From a virus, in IMG/VR virus record IMGVR_UViG_3300031754_000002, positions 1 through 64,000 of that record: 64,000 nucleotides of DNA. The stretch is one strand, 5' to 3'. Position 1 is the first letter of the stretch; every line of letters starts with the position of its first letter. Position numbers and translations under genes: made by a program. Shown piece by piece: positions 1 to 62,270 of this stretch. A model generated the notes under the pieces. It was given only the letters and a program-made list of their open reading frames with translations, was not told where the DNA came from and searched no databases.

Positions 1-297
1 CGACCACGACCACGACCCCGACCCCGACCGCGACCACGACCGCGACCGCGACCACGACCCCGACCGCGACCACGACCGCGACCGCGACCACGACCACGAC
101 CGCGATCCCGACCACGACCACGACCCCGACCGCGACCACGACCGCGACCCCGACCGCGACCGCGACCCCGACCGCGACCGCGACCGCGACCGCGACCACG
201 ACCACGACCACGACCACGACCGCGACCGCGACCACGACCCCGACCCCGACCGCGACCACGACCGCGACCACGACCCGAGGACAGCCGTGCCGGTCAC
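1..297 (-). CDS. Low-complexity S-[R/W/G] dipeptide repeat protein (MTGTAVLGSWSRSWSR...), truncated by the window
   Basis: GTG at 297 overlaps the TGA of a 21-aa ORF (294-359, MRRSWSWSGSRS...), which overlaps the stop of 356-619 (GTGA coupling). Confidence 0.5.
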   Translation of the reverse strand, partial: MTGTAVLGSWSRSWSRSGSGSWSRSRSWSWSWSWSRSRSRSRSGSRSRSGSRSWSRSGSWSWSGSRSWSWSRSRSWSRSGSWSRSRSWSRSGSGSWSWS

Positions 298-355
298 GAC
301 GACCGCGACCACGACCACGACCGCGACCGCGACCCCGACCACGACCACGACCGCC
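1..355 (-). repeat. Imperfect 6-bp tandem repeat (minus strand TCG-NGG, N=T/C/G), running off the window edge
   Basis: cgacca/cgaccg/cgaccc units throughout, interrupted only at about 277-297. Confidence 0.95.
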
Positions 356-44754: not shown

Positions 44755-46059
44755 CTAGTATTCCGCACTCACTTCTAGTCCACTGCCTTCCATATAGGCA
44801 AGGCCCGTCGGATAACGATGCAACGCTGCCGCATAGCCATGAAGCTGGAACCGTGCCTGCAACGTCCCGGACAGAACCTCCTTGAACACGCTCGTATGCT
44901 TCGGCGACTCGAACAACACACTGTCGGTCGGACGTGCGCACACAATCACGTCGCGGTTTTTCCCTGCCCCAAGAGTCGCAGGAATCGCATCTGACAAAAA
45001 TGTCGGCCAGCCAAGGATCGGGGGAGCGACAGCAGGCCGCGAGTCATCGAACGTGTACGCCACGGGAGGGAGCGCTTGATGCCCAGGAACCGCGAGAGGG
45101 AGGTTCTGCAAATCCTCAGCACCCCCGAGATAGCACCAGCGAGCGGTCCGCATCAACCACACCTCCGGCGGACAGTTCCGTGCATCCCCCAGCTTTGCCG
45201 CGACCTGCGACAGCGCAGCGAACATTTCATAGCCCTGTTTACCCGTGTACTGCACTACCGACACGCCACCCGCACCGGTAGTGAGATTCAGCACACCCGC
45301 GATTCGCTGGTTCGCTTTCCCCGTGCCAGTAAACAGCGACTCCTCAAGCCTGCGGTCATAGGACTCCAACAGGTCCTTCAACACCACTACATCCAAGGCG
45401 GCAGTAGCCGGTGATTGTTCAAGCTGCTGCATCGAACAATCCGCCTGCCCCGCGAACGTCTCACACCACGATTCAACCGCCGCATCCGTGAAGTCCCGTT
45501 CCGGCGCAGGCGTGACATCAGATACTCCCGGCGCGTGAGTGCCTTCCACGATACGCGGCAGGTTCACTTCAACCACGCCCGTCGGCAAATCGAAAGTAGG
45601 GATCATGCTCGCGTAAACCCGCTTGGCCCTCGCGGCAGTGGCAAAATACTCATTGGCCCACCACGGCACCCCAAAAAACTCGCCACCAGTGACACGGCTA
45701 GGGTTCACACGAAACTCCGCGCCCTCAAGCCTCCGCTGCTGCAACCTTTCACTCTCAACAGCAATCTCTTTGGCGTGACGCTCCAACCGTGCTCTCGCCC
45801 GCTGATCATTGCTGATCTGCGCACGCGCCACGTCCGCGAAGTAGCTTGCCTGCTCCTCGCGTGGAAGATGACCCTGAAAGCGTTCATACACCATCGGCTC
45901 ACGACGTATCTCAACGCGCGGTGAAAGCCGCTGTAGCTCAGCATGGTACGCACGAGCGCTAACAACCGCTTCCGCCTCGATACGTGCCCGGACTTCGGCC
46001 GGGATCGCAGCGCCACGGTCCTCCTCGACAGTCTCGTCAAGCTCTAGCGTGTCGCTCAT
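44755..46059 (-). CDS. Second HK97-fold major capsid protein paralog
   Basis: RVNP...GG.F..P.W, VNLPR, ETFAGQAD.S.Q.LEQSP, EVLSGTLQARFQ shared with 36891-39433. Confidence 0.85.
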   Translation of the reverse strand: MSDTLELDETVEEDRGAAIPAEVRARIEAEAVVSARAYHAELQRLSPRVEIRREPMVYERFQGHLPREEQASYFADVARAQISNDQRARARLERHAKEIAVESERLQQRRLEGAEFRVNPSRVTGGEFFGVPWWANEYFATAARAKRVYASMIPTFDLPTGVVEVNLPRIVEGTHAPGVSDVTPAPERDFTDAAVESWCETFAGQADCSMQQLEQSPATAALDVVVLKDLLESYDRRLEESLFTGTGKANQRIAGVLNLTTGAGGVSVVQYTGKQGYEMFAALSQVAAKLGDARNCPPEVWLMRTARWCYLGGAEDLQNLPLAVPGHQALPPVAYTFDDSRPAVAPPILGWPTFLSDAIPATLGAGKNRDVIVCARPTDSVLFESPKHTSVFKEVLSGTLQARFQLHGYAAALHRYPTGLAYMEGSGLEVSAEY

Positions 46060-47837
46060 CGCGCCAACCTCAACATGTCCAGTTCCTGCTCAGCACGACG
46101 CGTCAGATCAACCACAACAGCCGAGCGACCGTTCGTCTCCTCACTGTCATCAGCACCCTGAGCCTCATCAGCCTTACCGAGCGCGGTAGCAGCCGCTTCC
46201 AAAGCCTTCGTGACCTTCTCGTCGGACGGACTGTCCATATCACCGGTCTGTTCGGCTAGCGCCTTAGCAACAGCCTCTTTCGCCTCGTCGATCGAGTCAG
46301 ACACACCCTCGTCAGCATCGTCTCTGGCCTCAGCCTCATACTCGGCGCGTAGCTCACGCACGCGCTCCGTGTACTCCTCGCCCTTCGCCGCTGCCTTCGC
46401 TTCCAGGCCCTCCCAGAACGATGCAGGCTCAGACTCCGACGGCAGTAGACCCGAAAGCTCGTCTCCGGCCTCCGCGAGCTTATCCACCAAGCCCTGAATC
46501 AACTGTTCCTTCGCAGACGACAACGCTTTACCCGCACGGAACTCATACTCGCCATCCGTTGAGCGAATACTTGTCGTGCTACCCGTTGACGGTGATGCGC
46601 CGAATGTGACGGCACTCACATCTCCGCCGTGCAAGGTCACACCCTTCACTTTGCGGTCAGTTAGCTCATCATTCCAGTCATCATCGGTGCAGCGAAACGC
46701 GAAACTCATCTGATCCACGAGCCCGCGCTCCATCTTCAGCTTTAGCCTCTGTGCATCCACGTCCCGCGGGTCAAAGGTCGCGTTCACGAGCAGCCCCTTG
46801 GATGTTTCCTCCAGCCTCAACGTGCCCGGAATGTCCGAGTCCTTACGTTCCGTTCGTGCAAGCGGCAAGCCTTCGTGTTCCACTCGAAACACGCAATCCG
46901 GTTCCTCTTTCAATGTGCGGCGAAAACTGCCACGGGAAATAGTCTCCGTGAAGCCACCAACCGAATATGGCACATCAAAAAGTGACGCATATCCTTCAAA
47001 ATGGAACATGCCATCATCGTCTTCGCTGCCGTCCCGGAACTCACATTCACGCACCGAGAACTGCCGGTGCTCCAAGCCCTTCGCGTTACGCAGATTTTCG
47101 ACCCGCCGCTTACGCAGCTCAAACTGTGCGGCGCTACGCGAATCCTTCTCGATTTCGCCCGTGCCATCACAATCCGGGCACTCCTTACCCTTCACCTTGC
47201 CACTACCATCACACGTCGGGCACGTTTCCATGTCCTCAGTGTCGTTTTCCACCGCACGCCGACCATTCGCCTCCGGCGCATATGTGGTGACACGCCGCAC
47301 CTTCTTAGGCGTCCCCAACGTCACATTATCATCGGCGTCCACCATGTACGTCACCTGCCACAACACGTCTTCGCGTTCATACACCGCCCACTCGTCAGTC
47401 ATGTCCGAGATGTAGACGTAGGAATATTCGCCCTTTTTAGGCTTCGGGAGCGATTCGACTATCGCCTGCTGCACCATCTGGCGACGGTCATTGTAGGTTT
47501 CGCGCTCCTCAAGCGTTGACCACACCGACTTTTCTTCTTTCAGCGATCCATCACTAGACCAATTGTCGGGTATGAGCGAACTGAGTTTCAGCGCCTTGGC
47601 ACGCTTAATGATGTGCGCACGGATTGAGTCATGGCTCGCATCTCCACGTCCGACCGCTTTGATCGCTTTTTTTAGGTCGTCTTCGTCCCCGATCGGGTAC
47701 GAGCCATCGGCCATTGCTTCGCCTTTTTTTGCCATTTCGTCACGGTCGGCCTTCTTGTACTTCGCGCGCCACTCCCGCTCAAGTGACCGTTCGACCGTCA
47801 CGATGTCAGTCTCGACCGGCTCAGTCTCAACACCCAT
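46056..47837 (-). CDS. HK97 prohead protease with extra N-terminal domains
   Basis: FEGYASLF, FTETISRGSF, EH...PLART, QMSFAF, DVSAVTFGA; N-terminal DGSYPI domain and CxxCxGxG Zn finger. Confidence 0.9.
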   Translation of the reverse strand: MGVETEPVETDIVTVERSLEREWRAKYKKADRDEMAKKGEAMADGSYPIGDEDDLKKAIKAVGRGDASHDSIRAHIIKRAKALKLSSLIPDNWSSDGSLKEEKSVWSTLEERETYNDRRQMVQQAIVESLPKPKKGEYSYVYISDMTDEWAVYEREDVLWQVTYMVDADDNVTLGTPKKVRRVTTYAPEANGRRAVENDTEDMETCPTCDGSGKVKGKECPDCDGTGEIEKDSRSAAQFELRKRRVENLRNAKGLEHRQFSVRECEFRDGSEDDDGMFHFEGYASLFDVPYSVGGFTETISRGSFRRTLKEEPDCVFRVEHEGLPLARTERKDSDIPGTLRLEETSKGLLVNATFDPRDVDAQRLKLKMERGLVDQMSFAFRCTDDDWNDELTDRKVKGVTLHGGDVSAVTFGASPSTGSTTSIRSTDGEYEFRAGKALSSAKEQLIQGLVDKLAEAGDELSGLLPSESEPASFWEGLEAKAAAKGEEYTERVRELRAEYEAEARDDADEGVSDSIDEAKEAVAKALAEQTGDMDSPSDEKVTKALEAAATALGKADEAQGADDSEETNGRSAVVVDLTRRAEQELDMLRLAR

Positions 47838-47896
47838 GCGGACCTCCTTCGGAAACGAAAAGCCCGCAATTTGCGGGAAGTGAGCACAACGCACCT

Positions 47897-47914
47897 GTTA
47901 GCGTGTGCTAACGT
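47897..47914 (+). promoter_or_regulatory. Inverted repeat operator overlapping a -10 box
   Basis: GTTAGC-GTGT-GCTAAC overlapping TAACGT, just upstream of the RHH gene. Confidence 0.5.
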
Positions 47915-47924
47915 CTGCGCGAAT

Positions 47925-48086
47925 GTGAAACAAACTGGGCTTCGACTAGAAGATGATCTACTTGCGCGGGTAGAAGCTGCTCGTGGTGACGTGCCACGTG
48001 AAGTGTTCCTTCGTCGCGCAATCGAACTTATGCTCAACACTAAACGAGAGGACTCCGATGGCAGCACGACCCGCACTGGTTCCTGA
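47925..48086 (+). CDS. Ribbon-helix-helix regulator
   Basis: MKQTGLRLEDDLLARVEAARGDVPREVFLRRAIE. Confidence 0.75.
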   Translation: MKQTGLRLEDDLLARVEAARGDVPREVFLRRAIELMLNTKREDSDGSTTRTGS

Positions 48087-48588
48087 ATCCGGCCCGTATG
48101 AGATTCTGCAAGGACTCATAGCCGAGGTGCTAGCCAACGGTGACTTTGTACCTGCGGAGGAAGCCCTGCGTATCGACAGGCTCATGCGCGAGAAGCATCC
48201 AAGACAACATGCTGCGTTTTTGGAGGCCCAGTCCTATCGCCTTTACTACGAGATACTGCAAGGTGCCTACCAAAGCCAGCGGCAGCGTTCGCGTCACCAC
48301 GCTCCCGCTAGTGAATTCGGCCGACGTGCTACCGGCAAGCACGATGATGTCTCAGTGTTTATAACGTGGCGCTGCAAGGTAGACGATGCCAACACTCAGC
48401 GAACGATCGGCGACATGACCGGAGCCGATCATCTCTATGTCGCCGACAGCTATCGCGGCGATAAGCAACGCGCAGCGATGCTAGAGGCATTTCACCGTGC
48501 AGTCGCAAAGAAGGCTGGTAGGCGCAAAACAAGCGAGGTCTTTTCAGAGGACCAGTTCCTCGCACTCTACGAAAGCATCGCTAAATAG
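48058..48588 (+). CDS. Unknown alpha-helical protein in the Cas7-like cassette
   Basis: GAGGA RBS; overlaps the RHH gene. Confidence 0.7.
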   Translation: MAARPALVPESGPYEILQGLIAEVLANGDFVPAEEALRIDRLMREKHPRQHAAFLEAQSYRLYYEILQGAYQSQRQRSRHHAPASEFGRRATGKHDDVSVFITWRCKVDDANTQRTIGDMTGADHLYVADSYRGDKQRAAMLEAFHRAVAKKAGRRKTSEVFSEDQFLALYESIAK

Positions 48589-48590
48589 CA

Positions 48591-48733
48591 CGACGGCCCT
48601 TGTTGACTGGCCCAGCCGTTGCACCTCCCCGCTGCCTTTCCGACTCCGCTGCCCACACTGCTCCTGCCCCGCCCCACGCTCCCGACTCGTCATCACAGCT
48701 CCCAGCCGAACAGGCCTGCCCAATCCTCCCGAC
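48591..48733 (+). repeat. Array 1: CGAC-punctuated units of NNNNC pentamers
   Basis: YGAC at 48604, 48641, 48683, 48730 (spacing 37/42/47 = 5n+7). Confidence 0.8.
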
Positions 48734-48771
48734 CTCCTGAACTATTACTAACCAAAACACGAAAGGCCAAC

Positions 48772-49485
48772 ATGACCAGCATATTCGAGCCATACCGGCG
48801 CAAGAATTATCCGTATGTATTCGTCGCCTCGATCCACCTGCACACGATCGCGGGCGGCGTGCCCCTAAACGAGACAATTCTTGAGGGACACCTCAAGCGC
48901 AAGACCGCCGCACCCGATGACCTAATTCGCTCCGAGGTCGCCTCAATCATGGTCGAGGAGGGACTAAGTGCCGATGAGGCCATTGAGCGTGCCGCGAAAC
49001 GCAAGGGCCTTGTGGGCTTTGCGAAGGACAGCAACGGCCTTTATGTGCGCGGCTTTCAAGTCAAGGCGATGCTTGTAGAATCGGCGTGCATCGCTGCCGC
49101 CGAGGGACGCATCCCGAAGAAATGGGGCCAAATGTCCGAGCAAGGAAAGGCACTCAAGAGTTGGTTTCCCGAGCATGTGTTTGTTCTCGATGACCGGATT
49201 CACCTCGGCGTGGACGAGCCCACCGAAATTCCACAGTCGTTTATACACAAGGTAGGCCCGAAGGGGCCGATGAGCGCTATCCAGTACACGGAGCTCGTCC
49301 GCGATGCCGACGTATCCTTCGCGGTCGAGACAGACCACGACTTTCCCGAGGATGTTTGGGCCGCGATTTGGCTCACAGCCGAGCGTAACGGCCTTGGCGC
49401 ATCACGCAAGCTCGGCTATGGCACTTTTGAGAGCCGCAAATGGCAGAAAATGTCATCCCGTACCCGTAAACTTAAGGCCGCATAA
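48772..49485 (+). CDS. Stand-alone Cas7/RAMP-like protein
   Basis: N-terminal strand IHLHTIAGG, LYVRGFQVKAML helix, C-terminal G-rich loop GLGASRKLGYGTF. Confidence 0.75.
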   Translation: MTSIFEPYRRKNYPYVFVASIHLHTIAGGVPLNETILEGHLKRKTAAPDDLIRSEVASIMVEEGLSADEAIERAAKRKGLVGFAKDSNGLYVRGFQVKAMLVESACIAAAEGRIPKKWGQMSEQGKALKSWFPEHVFVLDDRIHLGVDEPTEIPQSFIHKVGPKGPMSAIQYTELVRDADVSFAVETDHDFPEDVWAAIWLTAERNGLGASRKLGYGTFESRKWQKMSSRTRKLKAA

Positions 49486-49487
49486 TC

Positions 49488-49724
49488 TCTCGACACCGCC
49501 CGCTCGAAACACCGCACGAACCTGTCAGCCCATCCGACCAGTCAAACCAATCCGTCGCGCCTCGATACTATGCGCCGCACCCGACATTCCTCCTCGTCGA
49601 TACCCCTCGGCCCCGCCTATCTCCCCATCCCTTCCGACAGCCCCCCGTCGCCCTCGCCCTCACAGTACGCCCCCTCTCTCTCGACACCCCTGCCGCGACA
49701 CTCCGCACCCCTCCGCTTCCGACT
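49488..49724 (+). repeat. Array 2: CGAC-punctuated units of NNNNC pentamers
   Basis: CGAY at 49491, 49535, 49582, 49598, 49635, 49682, 49720. Confidence 0.8.
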
Positions 49725-49741
49725 AACCGAAAGGACCACCG

Positions 49742-50779
49742 ATGACCGATGAGCCGAGTCGAAGCGACGAGATCAAGCACGTAGAAGGAGAGCTAAAGTC
49801 CCTTGCGAACCAAGTGGGCGTTGCGATAGGGCGTCTCCGTGCATTGCTCGGGGACGAGTTCGTCAAGAAGGTCCATGCCGCCGTGACTGGACGAGTTGCC
49901 TTTGACGAGGCGCAGCCGCTCACAGATGCGGATGCACGGGCATGGAGCGAGGCGAACCCCGGCAAGCAGGTACGTTTTACGGTGGAGTCCGAGGTCAAGC
50001 CCACAGGCGCCCGAAAGTTGGATGACTGGCTGGACGTGAAGGCACCCAAGGGCACCGTCGAGATCCGCAGCAATGAGATCAAGGAACTGGAGAAACAGCT
50101 AAAGGCGATCCCCGGTAAACTCACCGTTGCGGAGCTAGGCTGGATTCACAATCGTCTTGGCGAACTCTATAGGATGCCGGTGAAGGGCAACGCGGCACAG
50201 CAATCCTTTGCGCAAGCCTTCGGTATGGCACCATCGGAAATACATACGATCGAGGACGCGATTGTTGAGCTAGCCGACAAGCTCGGCGAGATGCGCACGG
50301 ACATTACATCGCTCCGTCAGACCGTGGGCGAGCTGCAAACCCCGTTTGAGCCATACGAGCCGCCAGTGCTCGCCAAGATACTTCGTCCGCATCTGCTCGC
50401 GCTAGACGATCACGGTGAGGACGAGTGGGCTGAGGGATCGTTCGGCTGGGGTGAGTGTTTGTGGGTGCCCGGCAAGGTGGGCATTGATGTGACGGAGATC
50501 AAGGTTGAGGCGCTGGCCGCCGGGACGGACAATATACACGGCGCGCAAGTGAAAACCTACGCCACCTATCGTGAAGACCACCACGATACCACACAGCGCG
50601 AACTTGTTGAGTGCATCGCGCGGGAGGCAGCTAAGCGGAACGCAACTGTTGTGTATCTCAGTAAGCCGGCGCATCGCCATATCCACGGCGACTATCCTGG
50701 CGACACGCCGCGTTTCCTACAGCACTGGTGTTATGCGGCGTTTTTGAGTGCGGCCCGCGCCGCCGGAGACGAGCAGTGA
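49742..50779 (+). CDS. Hypothetical protein
   Basis: AAAGGA RBS directly after array 2; 345-aa ORF. Confidence 0.65.
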   Translation: MTDEPSRSDEIKHVEGELKSLANQVGVAIGRLRALLGDEFVKKVHAAVTGRVAFDEAQPLTDADARAWSEANPGKQVRFTVESEVKPTGARKLDDWLDVKAPKGTVEIRSNEIKELEKQLKAIPGKLTVAELGWIHNRLGELYRMPVKGNAAQQSFAQAFGMAPSEIHTIEDAIVELADKLGEMRTDITSLRQTVGELQTPFEPYEPPVLAKILRPHLLALDDHGEDEWAEGSFGWGECLWVPGKVGIDVTEIKVEALAAGTDNIHGAQVKTYATYREDHHDTTQRELVECIAREAAKRNATVVYLSKPAHRHIHGDYPGDTPRFLQHWCYAAFLSAARAAGDEQ

Positions 50780-60917: not shown

Positions 60918-62270
60918 ATGGGCAAGCTCACGAAACTAACCCCAAGCCAAACCAAGCATCTCGCGGCGAGTTATGAGGAATGGCTATCCGTCGGCCGCTG
61001 CACCGAACCAGCCGATCGGCCAGCAATGGAGACAGCGGTCCGCGCGATGTACGCCGAGATTGGCCAGCCTCCACCAGCAGTCGTCTGGCTGGACTCTCCG
61101 TTGGCTGGCGTGTGTGGCTCCTGGTTCCTATCAAACCTGTTGAAGACGTTGCGCAACGACGCAAACCAGCTCGGGGACCAGCTCAGGGACCAGCTCAGGG
61201 ACCAGCTCGGGGGCCAGCTCAGGGGCCAGCTTGGGGACCAGCTCAGGGGCCAGCTCGGGGACCAGCTCTGGGACCAGCTCTGGGGCCAGCTTGGGGGCCA
61301 GCTTGGGGACCAGCTCAGGGACCAGCTCAGGGGCCAGCTCAGGGACCAGCTCAGGGACCAGCTCTGGGGCCAGCTCGGGGGCCAGCTCAGGGGCCAGCTT
61401 GGGGACCAGCTCAGGGACCAGCTCTGGGGCCAGCTTGGGGACCAGCTCAGGGGCCAGCTCGGGGGCCAGCTCAGGGGCCAGCTCGGGGGCCAGCTCAGGG
61501 GCCAGCTCGGGGGCCAGCTCAGGGACCAGCTCAGGGGCCAGCTCGGGGACCAGCTCTGGGACCAGCTCTGGGGCCAGCTTGGGGGCCAGCTTGGGGACCA
61601 GCTCAGGGACCAGCTCGCACAATGCTGGTGGGCACAGCATGAAGCCGCGTGGATCGCATTTTACTTGTGGCCCGAGACGAACCTAGCCGTCAACTACAAG
61701 GAACAGGTAAGTCGGCGTCTCGCCCTTTGGGAGACAACCGCGCGGTCTAGCTCATGGTGGTGGCCGATGATCGGCTTGGTTGTCCTTACGGAGCGACCAT
61801 CCAACGTGTCCGTAGATGGTGAGGGCCGGCTACATGACGAGCGAGGTCCAGCGCTCGGCTACCGGGATGGGTGGGGCGTATGGTCGATCCACGGTGTACG
61901 AGTGACACCAAAGATTGTCGAGCACCCAGAGAGCCTAACGGTGCAAGAGATCCGGGACGAGCCGAACGTGGAGGTTCGACGGGTGATGCTCGAACGGTTC
62001 GGTGCGGACCGCTTCATGGCGGAAAGCAACGCTGAGCTTATCGGCGAGGATGATTGGGGGAAGCTGTGGCGGATACCCGACGCGCCAGATGAGCCAGACG
62101 GTAAGCCGCTGGTGCTCGTTGAGATGCTGAACTCAACCCCGGAGCCAGACGGCTCGGTACGCACATACTATGAGCGTGCTCACCCTGACGTGCAGACACC
62201 TTTGGCGGCGTTGGCTTGGCAGGCGAACATGAGCGAGAGCGAGTACATGCAGATGGGGGCGCAAACGTGA
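60918..62270 (+). CDS. DUF6745-like protein with internal QL[R/G/W][D/G] repeats
   Basis: TEPADR, WLDSP, WWWP, ERP, RLHDERGPAL.Y.DG..VW..HGV, EPNVEVRR, NSTPEPDG. Confidence 0.85.
   Translation: MGKLTKLTPSQTKHLAASYEEWLSVGRCTEPADRPAMETAVRAMYAEIGQPPPAVVWLDSPLAGVCGSWFLSNLLKTLRNDANQLGDQLRDQLRDQLGGQLRGQLGDQLRGQLGDQLWDQLWGQLGGQLGDQLRDQLRGQLRDQLRDQLWGQLGGQLRGQLGDQLRDQLWGQLGDQLRGQLGGQLRGQLGGQLRGQLGGQLRDQLRGQLGDQLWDQLWGQLGGQLGDQLRDQLAQCWWAQHEAAWIAFYLWPETNLAVNYKEQVSRRLALWETTARSSSWWWPMIGLVVLTERPSNVSVDGEGRLHDERGPALGYRDGWGVWSIHGVRVTPKIVEHPESLTVQEIRDEPNVEVRRVMLERFGADRFMAESNAELIGEDDWGKLWRIPDAPDEPDGKPLVLVEMLNSTPEPDGSVRTYYERAHPDVQTPLAALAWQANMSESEYMQMGAQT
61167..61616 (+). repeat. 37 copies of a 12-bp unit CAGCTY-NGG-GRC
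   Basis: Direct count from sequence and translation. Confidence 0.95.

What the first reader, a model, noticed from the sequence alone, without database searches (positions are those of the whole stretch)
47897..49741. Phage-encoded stand-alone Cas7/RAMP-like gene flanked by two CGAC-punctuated pentamer-phased arrays: candidate RNA-guided system
Seen: a 237-aa ORF (48772-49485) ends in the G-rich loop GLGASRKLGYGTF and has RAMP-like N-terminal elements. No other cas gene is present. The non-coding DNA on both sides parses into units of a 7-nt spacer-repeat (e.g. TTCCGAC/TCCCGAC) plus n x 5 nt. Unit 48683 reads tcgtc atcac agctc ccagc cgaac aggcc tgccc aatcc; unit 49535 reads cagtc aaacc aatcc gtcgc gcctc gatac tatgc gccgc. 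In the six in-register units (48604, 48641, 48683, 49535, 49598, 49635), 40 of 43 pentamers end in C and 3 in T. Positions 1-2 vary freely and positions 3-4 are C-biased. Known: Cas7 polymerises along RNA with a fixed nucleotide step. From memory, phage Cas7-like systems with periodic GGY-NN RNAs have been reported as VIPR; this grammar (C-anchored on the coding strand, with CGAC unit boundaries) differs from that. Inference: each unit is a guide RNA bound by 6-8 subunits, with the variable positions specifying a possibly gapped target such as rival phage or host promoters.
Basis: partly seen in the sequence, partly recalled or inferred. Interest (0 to 1): 0.95.

Follow-up and report, generated by a model that had tools for sequence, protein, structure and literature searches.

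The report
Phage VIPR-type RNA-guided system
A small Cas7-like gene in a 106-kb phage, with its partner gene and two flanking 5-base-periodic arrays, belongs to the recently described VIPR family of phage RNA-guided DNA-silencing systems; its arrays are cytosine-anchored on the gene's own strand.

Summary
ORF 48772-49485 folds as a Cas7/Csm3-type RAMP (pLDDT 87.7; VIA Z 11.4). It is a remote homologue of the characterised Vipr protein of phage SUSP1 (hhalign 93.9%, E 1.6e-7).

Within the window alone the periodicity is only modestly significant (P about 0.01-0.02 per spacer). However, 75 of 79 non-identical homologous loci carry the same arrays beside the gene, 71 of them on the coding strand. 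A 176-aa partner gene (48058-48588) is present in 55 of 85 loci.

This is a VIPR system (bioRxiv 2026), not a new class. The grammar is VIPR's: three constrained plus two variable bases. Read on the opposite strand it is a degenerate GGY/NN.

Gene packing argues that the C-rich sense strand is the RNA. So does replacement of the two guanine-reading residues of SUSP1 Vipr (R138 to E/D/Q, D177 to A). This is unproven.

No natural target of the window's guides was found, and support for the 1-nt-skip code is only anecdotal. The scan's other notes on this genome cover this same stretch.

The parts
47871..48086 (+). Small ORF (71 aa from TTG) with a weak ribbon-helix-helix match. It is a possible operon regulator. 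The palindrome GTTAGC-GTGT-GCTAAC at 47896-47911 lies within its first codons as drawn (a later start would put it just upstream).
   Evidence: Pfam RHH_1 E 0.015, below the curated cut-off. The translation is and the palindrome is read directly. A similar ORF was found in only one other locus, so membership in the system is uncertain.
48058..48588 (+). Conserved 176-aa accessory gene (vap-like). It is mostly helical, with no known family or fold.
   Evidence: A homologue is present on the same strand as the RAMP gene in 55 of 85 loci: upstream in 52 and downstream in 3. hhalign of family alignment A4 against the downstream ORF of L019 gives 98.3%, E 1.5e-14. There is no Pfam, PHROG, NCBIfam or PADLOC match. 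The AF2 model has pLDDT 88.0. Fold searches give nothing usable: Foldseek E > 3 and VIA best Z 4.0.
48589..48733 (+). Array 1. It starts 1 nt after the vap-like stop codon. After a short head come three units of 6, 7 and 8 NNsCC pentamers, each closed by TYCCGAC. Anchor spacing is 37, 42 and 47 nt.
   Evidence: Parse; 46% C; lag-5 z = +3.7. The same vap-array-vipr layout recurs in relatives.
48734..48771 (+). 38-nt leader between the last CCGAC and the ATG. It carries the ribosome-binding site AAAGG and leaves no room for a promoter.
   Evidence: Sequence. No promoter-like site was found on either strand. A CCGAC just 5' of the ribosome-binding site is seen in relatives, including those with inverted arrays.
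48772..49485 (+). vipr-like gene: a 237-aa single-RRM RAMP protein with a beta-hairpin thumb (about residues 155-187) and G-loop 207-219.
   Evidence: AF2 pLDDT 87.7, pTM 0.80. Every listed Foldseek PDB hit (150 at E<=0.001) is a CRISPR effector complex, aligned mainly to Cas7-class subunits (Csm3, Cmr4, gRAMP, type VII Cas7), best E 2.2e-7. VIA gives Z 11.4 to type VII Cas7 and Z 10.0 to Csm3. The top BFVD hit is a phage 'RAMP superfamily protein', E 1.3e-11. hhalign to the SUSP1 Vipr family gives 93.9%, E 1.6e-7.
49486..49723 (+). Array 2. It starts right after the stop codon. Anchors are spaced 44, 47, 53, 47, 14 and 24 nt. Three units (49539, 49602, 49639) are cleanly phased and the others are slipped or short.
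   Evidence: Parse; 50% C; chain coverage P = 0.012. As RNA the + strand is nearly unstructured (-31.4 kcal/mol, z +1.36).
49742..50779 (+). 345-aa ORF that follows array 2 after 18 nt. It is not conserved with the system, so it is probably a neighbour rather than a component.
   Evidence: No homologue in the other 75 loci searched. Only weak coiled-coil-type Pfam hits.

Best explanation
This is a phage-borne VIPR-type system. It comprises a vipr-like RAMP gene, a conserved vap-like partner gene and two arrays of short guide units.

Most likely the cassette (RHH?)-vap-array1-vipr-array2 is transcribed as one + strand RNA. The arrays are then C-rich, unstructured RNA.

By analogy with SUSP1 VIPR, one protomer would bind each pentamer. 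It would hold the constrained s-c-C bases and present the two variable bases. Each run of 6-9 pentamers would specify a gapped DNA target (NNxNNx...) in a competing phage or prophage and silence it.

The GAC insertion at each anchor shifts the pentamer frame by 3 nt family-wide (by 2 nt in array 1 here). This would break the filament and delimit the units.

Shown:
- the fold, and homology to Vipr;
- conservation of arrays and partner gene;
- the position-specific logo;
- the tight gene packing.

Inferred:
- which strand is the RNA;
- C-base reading by E174;
- filament formation;
- the skip rule, the targets and any RNA processing.
For: Fold and homology.

Arrays go with the gene family: 75 of 79 loci, 71 on the coding strand.

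Logo over 6,385 pentamers: positions 1-2 are near uniform, position 3 is C .38 / G .31, position 4 is C .49, position 5 is C by construction of the search.

The partner gene is conserved in 55 of 85 loci in two gene orders.

Arrays diverge much faster than the gene. In L080 vs L084 the gene is 96% identical, the other flank 94% and the array flank 76%.

Evidence that the sense strand is the RNA:
- Arrays abut the vap stop codon and end 16-50 nt from the vipr ATG, so vipr must be transcribed through them.
- The three loci with inverted upstream arrays (L017, L019, L025) have 78-122-nt gaps, room for a divergent promoter, and there vap lies downstream followed by a sense C array.
- SUSP1 arrays are also on the vipr strand.
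- The G-reading residues of SUSP1 Vipr named in 10.64898/2026.04.26.720927 are replaced here by conserved residues: R138 aligns with E174 (E/D/Q in 65 of 65) and D177 with A210 (64 of 65). R179 is kept as R212.
- The C strand is unstructured as RNA.

Code: the last unit of L018 matches 8 of 8 NN pairs under a 1-nt skip to the VAEGWL codons of vipr genes in 28 of the 79 distinct vipr genes at >=85% NN (8/8 exact in about ten loci). The skipped base falls on the wobble position. It matches its own vipr at 7 of 8.
Against: There are no RNA data.

Read on the - strand the arrays are G-g-s-N-N, close to the published GGY/NN. The conserved anchor would then sit at the 3' end of each unit, like the type II tail.

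In L019 and L025 the inverted array abuts (L019) or overlaps (L025) an upstream + strand ORF, so the G strand could be co-transcribed there.

The residue argument rests on a remote alignment.

The skip-rule test is not significant once repeated hits are collapsed: 7 distinct words against 4.8 +/- 2.1 in shuffles, and for 8-NN words 1 against 0.27. One skip-3 case of similar look exists (L025).

No target was found for the window's own units.

Several units in array 2 are slipped or very short.
Confidence: 0.55

Rival explanations
1. The same VIPR system, but the guide RNAs are transcribed from the - strand, antisense to vipr. They would be degenerate GGY/NN (G-g-s-N-N) vrRNAs of the NNNGG/NNNNG kind already listed for some VIPR types. 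The locus would then be an ordinary member with no change in the anchored base.
For: All characterised vrRNAs are G-anchored. The - strand logo has G1 fixed by the search frame (87% and 84% at the next two frame positions when aligned on the CGAC anchor) and G2 at 49%. On that strand the conserved anchor (GGGTA-GTCGG in relatives) lies at the 3' end of each unit, like the type II tail. Three to four loci carry arrays with G on the vipr strand. In L019 such an array abuts an upstream + strand gene.
Against: In about 68 loci an antisense promoter would have to lie inside the vipr coding sequence, because only 16-50 nt separate the array from the ATG and the arrays abut the vap stop codon. The SUSP1 residues that read G1 and G2 are not kept. 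The G strand folds far more stably as RNA (-81.6 against -31.4 kcal/mol). No promoter-like site was found on the - strand here.
Confidence: 0.3
2. The periodic C-rich tracts are not guides. They would be DNA- or mRNA-level elements, such as binding sites for the RAMP or vap protein, translational or autoregulatory leaders, or spacers prone to unusual structures. The RAMP protein would have another RNA-binding role.
For: No target was found for this phage's units. The skip-rule enrichment is not significant. A CCGAC sits in the vipr leader even where the array is inverted, which hints at a regulatory site.
Against: Homology to a protein shown to use exactly such arrays as guides. Two hypervariable positions per pentamer and fast array turnover beside a conserved gene fit guides, not fixed binding sites. 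Arrays reach about 880 nt.
Confidence: 0.1
3. Chance periodicity in C-rich spacers, next to an unrelated small protein.
For: Within the window alone, P is only about 0.01-0.02 per spacer.
Against: 75 of 79 independent homologous loci, down to 25% protein identity, show the same arrays.
Confidence: 0.02

Closest known systems
VIPR type II (Escherichia phage SUSP1 and a Pseudomonas fulva prophage; bioRxiv 10.64898/2026.04.26.720920 and .720927)
   Same: A phage-borne, minimal two-gene locus. It has a small single-RRM RAMP with a G-loop and thumb, related at profile level. Arrays of 5-nt repeats (3 constrained + 2 variable bases) lie in the spacers on both sides of vipr. There is no CRISPR array and there are no cas genes.
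   Different: The protein is longer here (237 against 195 aa). The motif on the vipr strand is s-c-C/NN, not GGY/NN. R138, D177 and W178 are replaced by E, A and S. Units are 6-9 pentamers that abut, with 3-7-nt frame shifts, rather than 9-16 repeats followed by a structured 3' tail with a pseudoknot. The partner gene lies upstream and shows no similarity to SUSP1 vap1 (one search tested vap1 only against the Vipr-family profile; no direct vap-to-vap test was made).
Other VIPR types and non-canonical period-5 clusters: 'staggered arrays' and NNNGG/YNNNG/NNNNG repeats in 10.64898/2026.04.26.720920; GAC/NN, CAC/NN, WGT/NN and TGH/NN clusters in 10.64898/2026.10.21.760802
   Same: A degenerate or non-GGY fixed trinucleotide next to Vipr-like folds. 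Units abut so that the end of one marks the start of the next. This family is probably among them.
   Different: The figures and tables of those papers are not held as text. I could therefore not tell whether this family, its CCGAC anchor, its strand or its actinomycete hosts are described there.
CRISPR Cas7-class RAMPs (Csm3, Cmr4, type VII Cas7, gRAMP)
   Same: These are the best structural matches (Z 9.5-11.4). The expected mode is the same: one protomer per fixed step along a guide RNA.
   Different: The step is 5 nt, not 6. There is no CRISPR array, Cas6, Cas10, Cas1 or Cas2. Sequence similarity is only marginal: PADLOC Csm4/Cmr6 E 0.003-0.025 and no Pfam RAMP hit.

Membership tests
VIPR system | Vipr protein: a single-RRM RAMP fold with a glycine-rich loop and a thumb | tested here: met
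   AF2 pLDDT 87.7. Every listed Foldseek PDB hit (150 at E<=0.001) is a CRISPR effector complex, aligned mainly to Cas7-class subunits. VIA gives Z 11.4 and 10.0. The G-loop is residues 207-219 and the beta-hairpin about 155-187.
VIPR system | Sequence homology to an experimentally characterised Vipr | tested here: met
   hhalign of family alignment A1 against the SUSP1 Vipr family alignment A2: probability 93.9%, E 1.6e-7, 133 columns including the G-loop. Against the single SUSP1 sequence the result is only E 0.044.
VIPR system | Intergenic arrays of tandem 5-nt units with three constrained and two hypervariable positions, beside vipr | tested here: met
   Window parse; logo over 71 loci; 75 of 79 loci carry arrays; arrays diverge faster than the gene.
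VIPR system | Canonical GGY/NN motif on the vipr strand | tested here: not met
   The sense strand reads N-N-s-c-C. The antisense strand reads G-g-s-N-N, with only 49% G at position 2 and G commoner than C at position 3. The published systems also include degenerate motifs.
VIPR system | Guanine-reading residues of type II Vipr (H17, R138, D177, W178) | tested here: not met
   The aligned positions are E174 (E/D/Q in 65 of 65), A210 (64 of 65) and S211 (variable). R179 is kept as R212. H17 lies outside the aligned region.
VIPR system | Minimal, mostly viral locus with a vap accessory gene and without CRISPR array or cas genes | tested here: met
   The record is a complete 105,858-bp virus record. 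There is no Cas1, Pfam RAMP match or CRISPR repeat. The 176-aa partner is conserved in 55 of 85 loci. Its relation to published vap1-6 could not be tested.
VIPR system | vrRNAs expressed and bound by Vipr | not testable with these tools
The genome is a metagenomic virus record.
VIPR system | Targets obey the 1-nt-skip (NNx) code | tested here: inconclusive
   Raw exact hits are 55 at skip 1, against 4, 5 and 15 at other skips, but they are driven by one guide. Distinct words number 7, against 4.8 +/- 2.1 in shuffles. The L018 guide matches vipr genes at 8 of 8 in wobble register. The window's own units have no target.
VIPR type II architecture | Repeat tract of 9-16 units followed by a conserved, structured 3' tail | tested here: not met
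   Units have 6-9 pentamers and are separated only by a GAC/TYCCGAC frame shift. No Rfam match. The + strand RNA is unstructured.
CRISPR-Cas class 1 effector (Cas7/Csm3) | CRISPR array and partner cas genes (Cas5, Cas6, large subunit, Cas1-Cas2) | tested here: not met
   None found in the phage genome. Only the fold is shared.

The most novel reading that the evidence does not exclude
This large, mainly actinomycete-phage Vipr family reads cytosine-anchored guides (SCC/NN) made from the sense strand. An Arg-to-Glu swap on the thumb (E174) and Asp-to-Ala in the G-loop (A210) would have switched the anchored base from G to C. Short guides would be delimited by 3-nt GAC frame shifts, without tails or ribozymes. 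That would be a second anchoring chemistry for the non-contiguous VIPR code, not yet described as such.
Probability: 0.3. Interest if true: 0.7.

Novelty: new member of a known kind. Interest (0 to 1): 0.45.

Why it matters
VIPR is a months-old class of minimal RNA-guided DNA binders that need no PAM (the short target-adjacent motif CRISPR requires). This locus extends it to a 106-kb high-GC phage and to a large family found in prophages of Nocardiopsis, Streptomyces and Streptacidiphilus. The family has at least 1,852 cluster representatives at E <= 1e-3.

If the sense-strand, C-anchored reading and the R-to-E swap hold, the scaffold bases of the code would be evolvable. That bears on how RAMPs came to read guide RNA, and on designing orthogonal VIPR tools.

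If the arrays are simply antisense G-anchored vrRNAs, the locus is a routine new member of the class.

Tried and rejected
Family searches
- Pfam, PHROGs, NCBIfam and a PDB sequence search gave nothing for the 237-aa protein. PADLOC gave only marginal Csm4/Cmr6 hits.
- Tandem Repeats Finder and Rfam do not see the arrays. A global period-5 spectrum shows nothing, because the phase resets at each anchor.

Target searches for the window's units
- The local 1.2-Mb set gave no excess at any skip value.
- Exact NNx patterns for the units starting at 48687 and 49539, scanned in IMG/VR, gave 5 and 16 scattered hits. These show no convergence or shared gene. I treat them as chance.
- The family-wide skip-rule test loses significance once repeated hits are collapsed.

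Accessory gene
- Neither the fold searches nor the protein atlas gave a usable match for the vap-like protein.

False leads
- C-chains at 1.7-1.9 kb lie in a coding region.
- The CCGAC-rich genome ends are a coding hexamer repeat.

Searches and tools that failed
- The metagenome scan for close relatives found none.
- A first genome-collection scan failed on the broad alignment and was repeated with a narrower one.
As a result there are no close-relative arrays, no RNA evidence and no oligomer test.
Full report
**What is there**

The window is the first 64 kb of a complete 105,858-bp IMG/VR virus record. Around the finding, head genes (major capsid protein 44755-46059; prohead-protease fusion 46056-47837) run on the - strand. 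A tightly packed + strand block follows:
- a small ORF with a weak ribbon-helix-helix match (47871-48086);
- a 176-aa ORF (48058-48588);
- a 183-nt spacer with 46% C;
- the 237-aa ORF (48772-49485);
- a 256-nt spacer with 50% C;
- a 345-aa ORF (49742-50779).

**Check of the observation**

The six in-register units hold 43 pentamers, of which 40 end in C and 3 in T. The remaining units of array 2 are slipped by 1 nt or are very short.

Against dinucleotide-preserving shuffles of these C-rich spacers the signal is real but modest:
- lag-5 C autocorrelation has z = +3.7 and +2.1;
- chain coverage has P = 0.023 and 0.012.

The window alone would therefore not carry the claim.

**The protein**

No family library names the 237-aa protein. 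With a 65-sequence alignment, AlphaFold2 gives pLDDT 87.7.
- Every listed Foldseek PDB hit (150 at E<=0.001) is a CRISPR effector complex, aligned mainly to Cas7-class subunits (type VII Cas7, Csm3, Cmr4, gRAMP), best E 2.2e-7.
- An exhaustive structural alignment gives Z 11.4 to type VII Cas7 and Z 10.0 to Csm3.
- In the viral structure library the top hit is a phage 'RAMP superfamily protein' (E 1.3e-11).

**Relation to VIPR**

VIPR is described in three 2026 preprints. It consists of:
- a phage-encoded ancestral RAMP (Vipr);
- an accessory gene (vap);
- vrRNAs made of GGY/NN pentamers, whose NN bases pair with DNA while every third target base is skipped.

I located the SUSP1 locus in KT454805.2. 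YNNGG runs lie on both sides of two - strand genes, on the same strand as those genes.

A profile of the SUSP1 Vipr family aligns with the profile of the present family at 93.9% probability, E 1.6e-7, over 133 columns including the G-loop. The present protein is thus a remote Vipr homologue.

**Comparative evidence**

The family is large: 95 clusters at 90% identity and 1,852 representatives at E <= 1e-3 in the profile search. I fetched 75 loci from IMG/VR and 9 from genomes. The genomic loci come mostly from Actinomycetes: Nocardiopsis, Streptomyces, Streptacidiphilus and Nanopelagicales.
- Of 79 non-identical loci, 75 have a perfect run of at least 8 C or G at 5-nt spacing within 600 nt of the gene, 71 on the coding strand. 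The background in this phage is 11 runs per about 211 kb of strand.
- Arrays reach about 880 nt.
- Over 6,385 pentamers, positions 1-2 are near uniform, position 3 is C/G-biased, position 4 is 49% C and position 5 is C by construction of the search.
- Arrays change much faster than the gene. In L080 vs L084 the gene is 96% identical, the non-array flank 94% and the array flank 76%.

**The anchor**

Across the family the C of CGAC is in phase with the preceding pentamers, and GAC is a 3-nt insertion that starts a new phase. Anchor spacings peak at 33, 38, 43 and 48 nt, i.e. 5n+3. In array 1 of the window the spacing is 37, 42 and 47 nt, i.e. 5n+2.

[quoted passage not shown] There is no tail, ribozyme or Rfam family here.

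**The partner gene**

The 176-aa ORF has homologues on the vipr strand in 55 of 85 loci. It lies upstream in 52 and downstream in 3. A profile comparison confirms the downstream form (98.3%).

It is helical and matches no known fold. It is the vap-equivalent of this family. I could not test its relation to vap1-6. The 345-aa ORF is not conserved with the system.

**Which strand is the RNA?**

This is the one point where the locus may differ from published VIPR. On the - strand the arrays read G-g-s-N-N, a degenerate GGY/NN.

Four observations favour the + (C) strand.

1. Array 1 begins 1 nt after the vap stop codon and ends 38 nt before the vipr ATG. Family-wide, the gap to the ATG is 16-50 nt when C is on the coding strand. 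So vipr must be transcribed through the array, and an antisense promoter would have to lie inside vipr.

2. The three loci with inverted upstream arrays (L017, L019, L025) have gaps of 78-122 nt. L017 shows a plausible -35/-10 pair read by eye. Those same loci carry vap downstream, followed by a sense C array.

3. In SUSP1 the arrays are on the vipr strand.

4. The residues that read G1 and G2 in the cryo-EM structure are replaced here by residues conserved within this family. In the SUSP1 family those residues are R138 (47 of 47), D177 (41 of 47) and W178 (always aromatic).
   - R138 aligns with E174 (E/D/Q in 65 of 65), in a confidently aligned block.
   - D177 aligns with A210 (64 of 65).
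   - R179 is kept as R212.
   - From general knowledge of protein-nucleic acid recognition, Arg favours G and acidic side chains favour the amino group of C. The swap therefore fits a G-to-C change of anchor. This is inference.

In addition, the C strand is almost unstructured as RNA (-31.4 kcal/mol for 256 nt, z +1.36), while the G strand folds at -81.6 kcal/mol.

Against the + strand reading:
- all proven vrRNAs are G-anchored;
- the conserved anchor would be a 3' feature on the G strand;
- in L019 and L025 an inverted array abuts (L019) or overlaps (L025) an upstream + strand ORF.

I put the C strand at roughly 2:1.

**Targets**

I took 521 guides of at least 7 pentamers from all loci and searched 1.2 Mb of local sequence with the arrays masked.
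- Exact 7-NN words gave 55 hits at skip 1, against 4, 5 and 15 at skips 0, 2 and 3, and 10-20 for shuffled unit order.
- The excess comes mainly from one guide. The last unit of L018 (TT AG CA CC TC GC AC TT) matches vipr genes in 28 of the 79 distinct vipr genes at >=85% NN (8/8 exact in about ten loci), over the conserved VAEGWL codons. The skipped base falls on the wobble position. It matches its own vipr at 7 of 8.
- That echoes the published vrRNAs that target rival VIPR systems.
- After collapsing to distinct words the enrichment is not significant. One skip-3 case looks similar.
- The window's own units have no convincing target locally or in IMG/VR.

**Verdict**

The finding is real and well read. 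It is a member of the VIPR class described in 2026, not a new class. A later preprint already reports 21 period-5 clusters with non-canonical fixed trinucleotides beside Vipr-like folds, and this family may be among them.

What would be new, if shown, is C-anchoring on the sense strand, with the matching residue swap and guide delimitation by GAC frame shifts.

Noticed in passing
window 1-350, and G000:C1:105500-105858 (outside the window): Both ends of the phage record consist of a long (CNCGAC)n hexamer repeat. It continues an ORF that starts near 105445 and would encode an Asp-His/Arg/Pro dipeptide repeat. The assembly probably broke inside this repeat, which would explain the 'linear' ends. 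Its many CGAC copies are unrelated to the VIPR anchors (period 6, coding).
   Followed up: partly
window 61130-61680: About 36 or more tandem copies of a 12-nt unit (consensus close to CCAGCTCRGGGR), probably a coding 4-residue repeat.
   Followed up: no
G000:C1:105270-105345 (outside the window): The sequence contains GGTTCGAGTCC, which looks like a tRNA T-arm, just upstream of the repeat ORF. No tRNA scan was run (seen).
   Followed up: no
window 47896-47911: The perfect palindrome GTTAGC-GTGT-GCTAAC lies in the divergent region between the prohead-protease gene and the VIPR block. It is a plausible operator for the ribbon-helix-helix-like ORF.
   Followed up: no
L018:2922-2966 and L018:3096-3116: The last guide unit before vipr in this IMG/VR phage matches the conserved VAEGWL codons of rival vipr genes perfectly under the NNx code. 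It matches its own vipr with one NN pair mismatched. This is a possible anti-VIPR guide that spares self.
   Followed up: partly
L025:4283-4325: One unit matches the conserved YLAEHVFV codons of 7 vipr genes at 7-8 of 8 NN pairs under a 3-nt skip, i.e. equal spacing in guide and target. This could be chance or a second pairing geometry.
   Followed up: no
window 46056-47837 (- strand): The prohead protease (Peptidase_S78) is fused to an N-terminal part of about 250 aa carrying a CxxCxGxG zinc-ribbon-like motif (DnaJ central domain / anti-TRAP hits).
   Followed up: no
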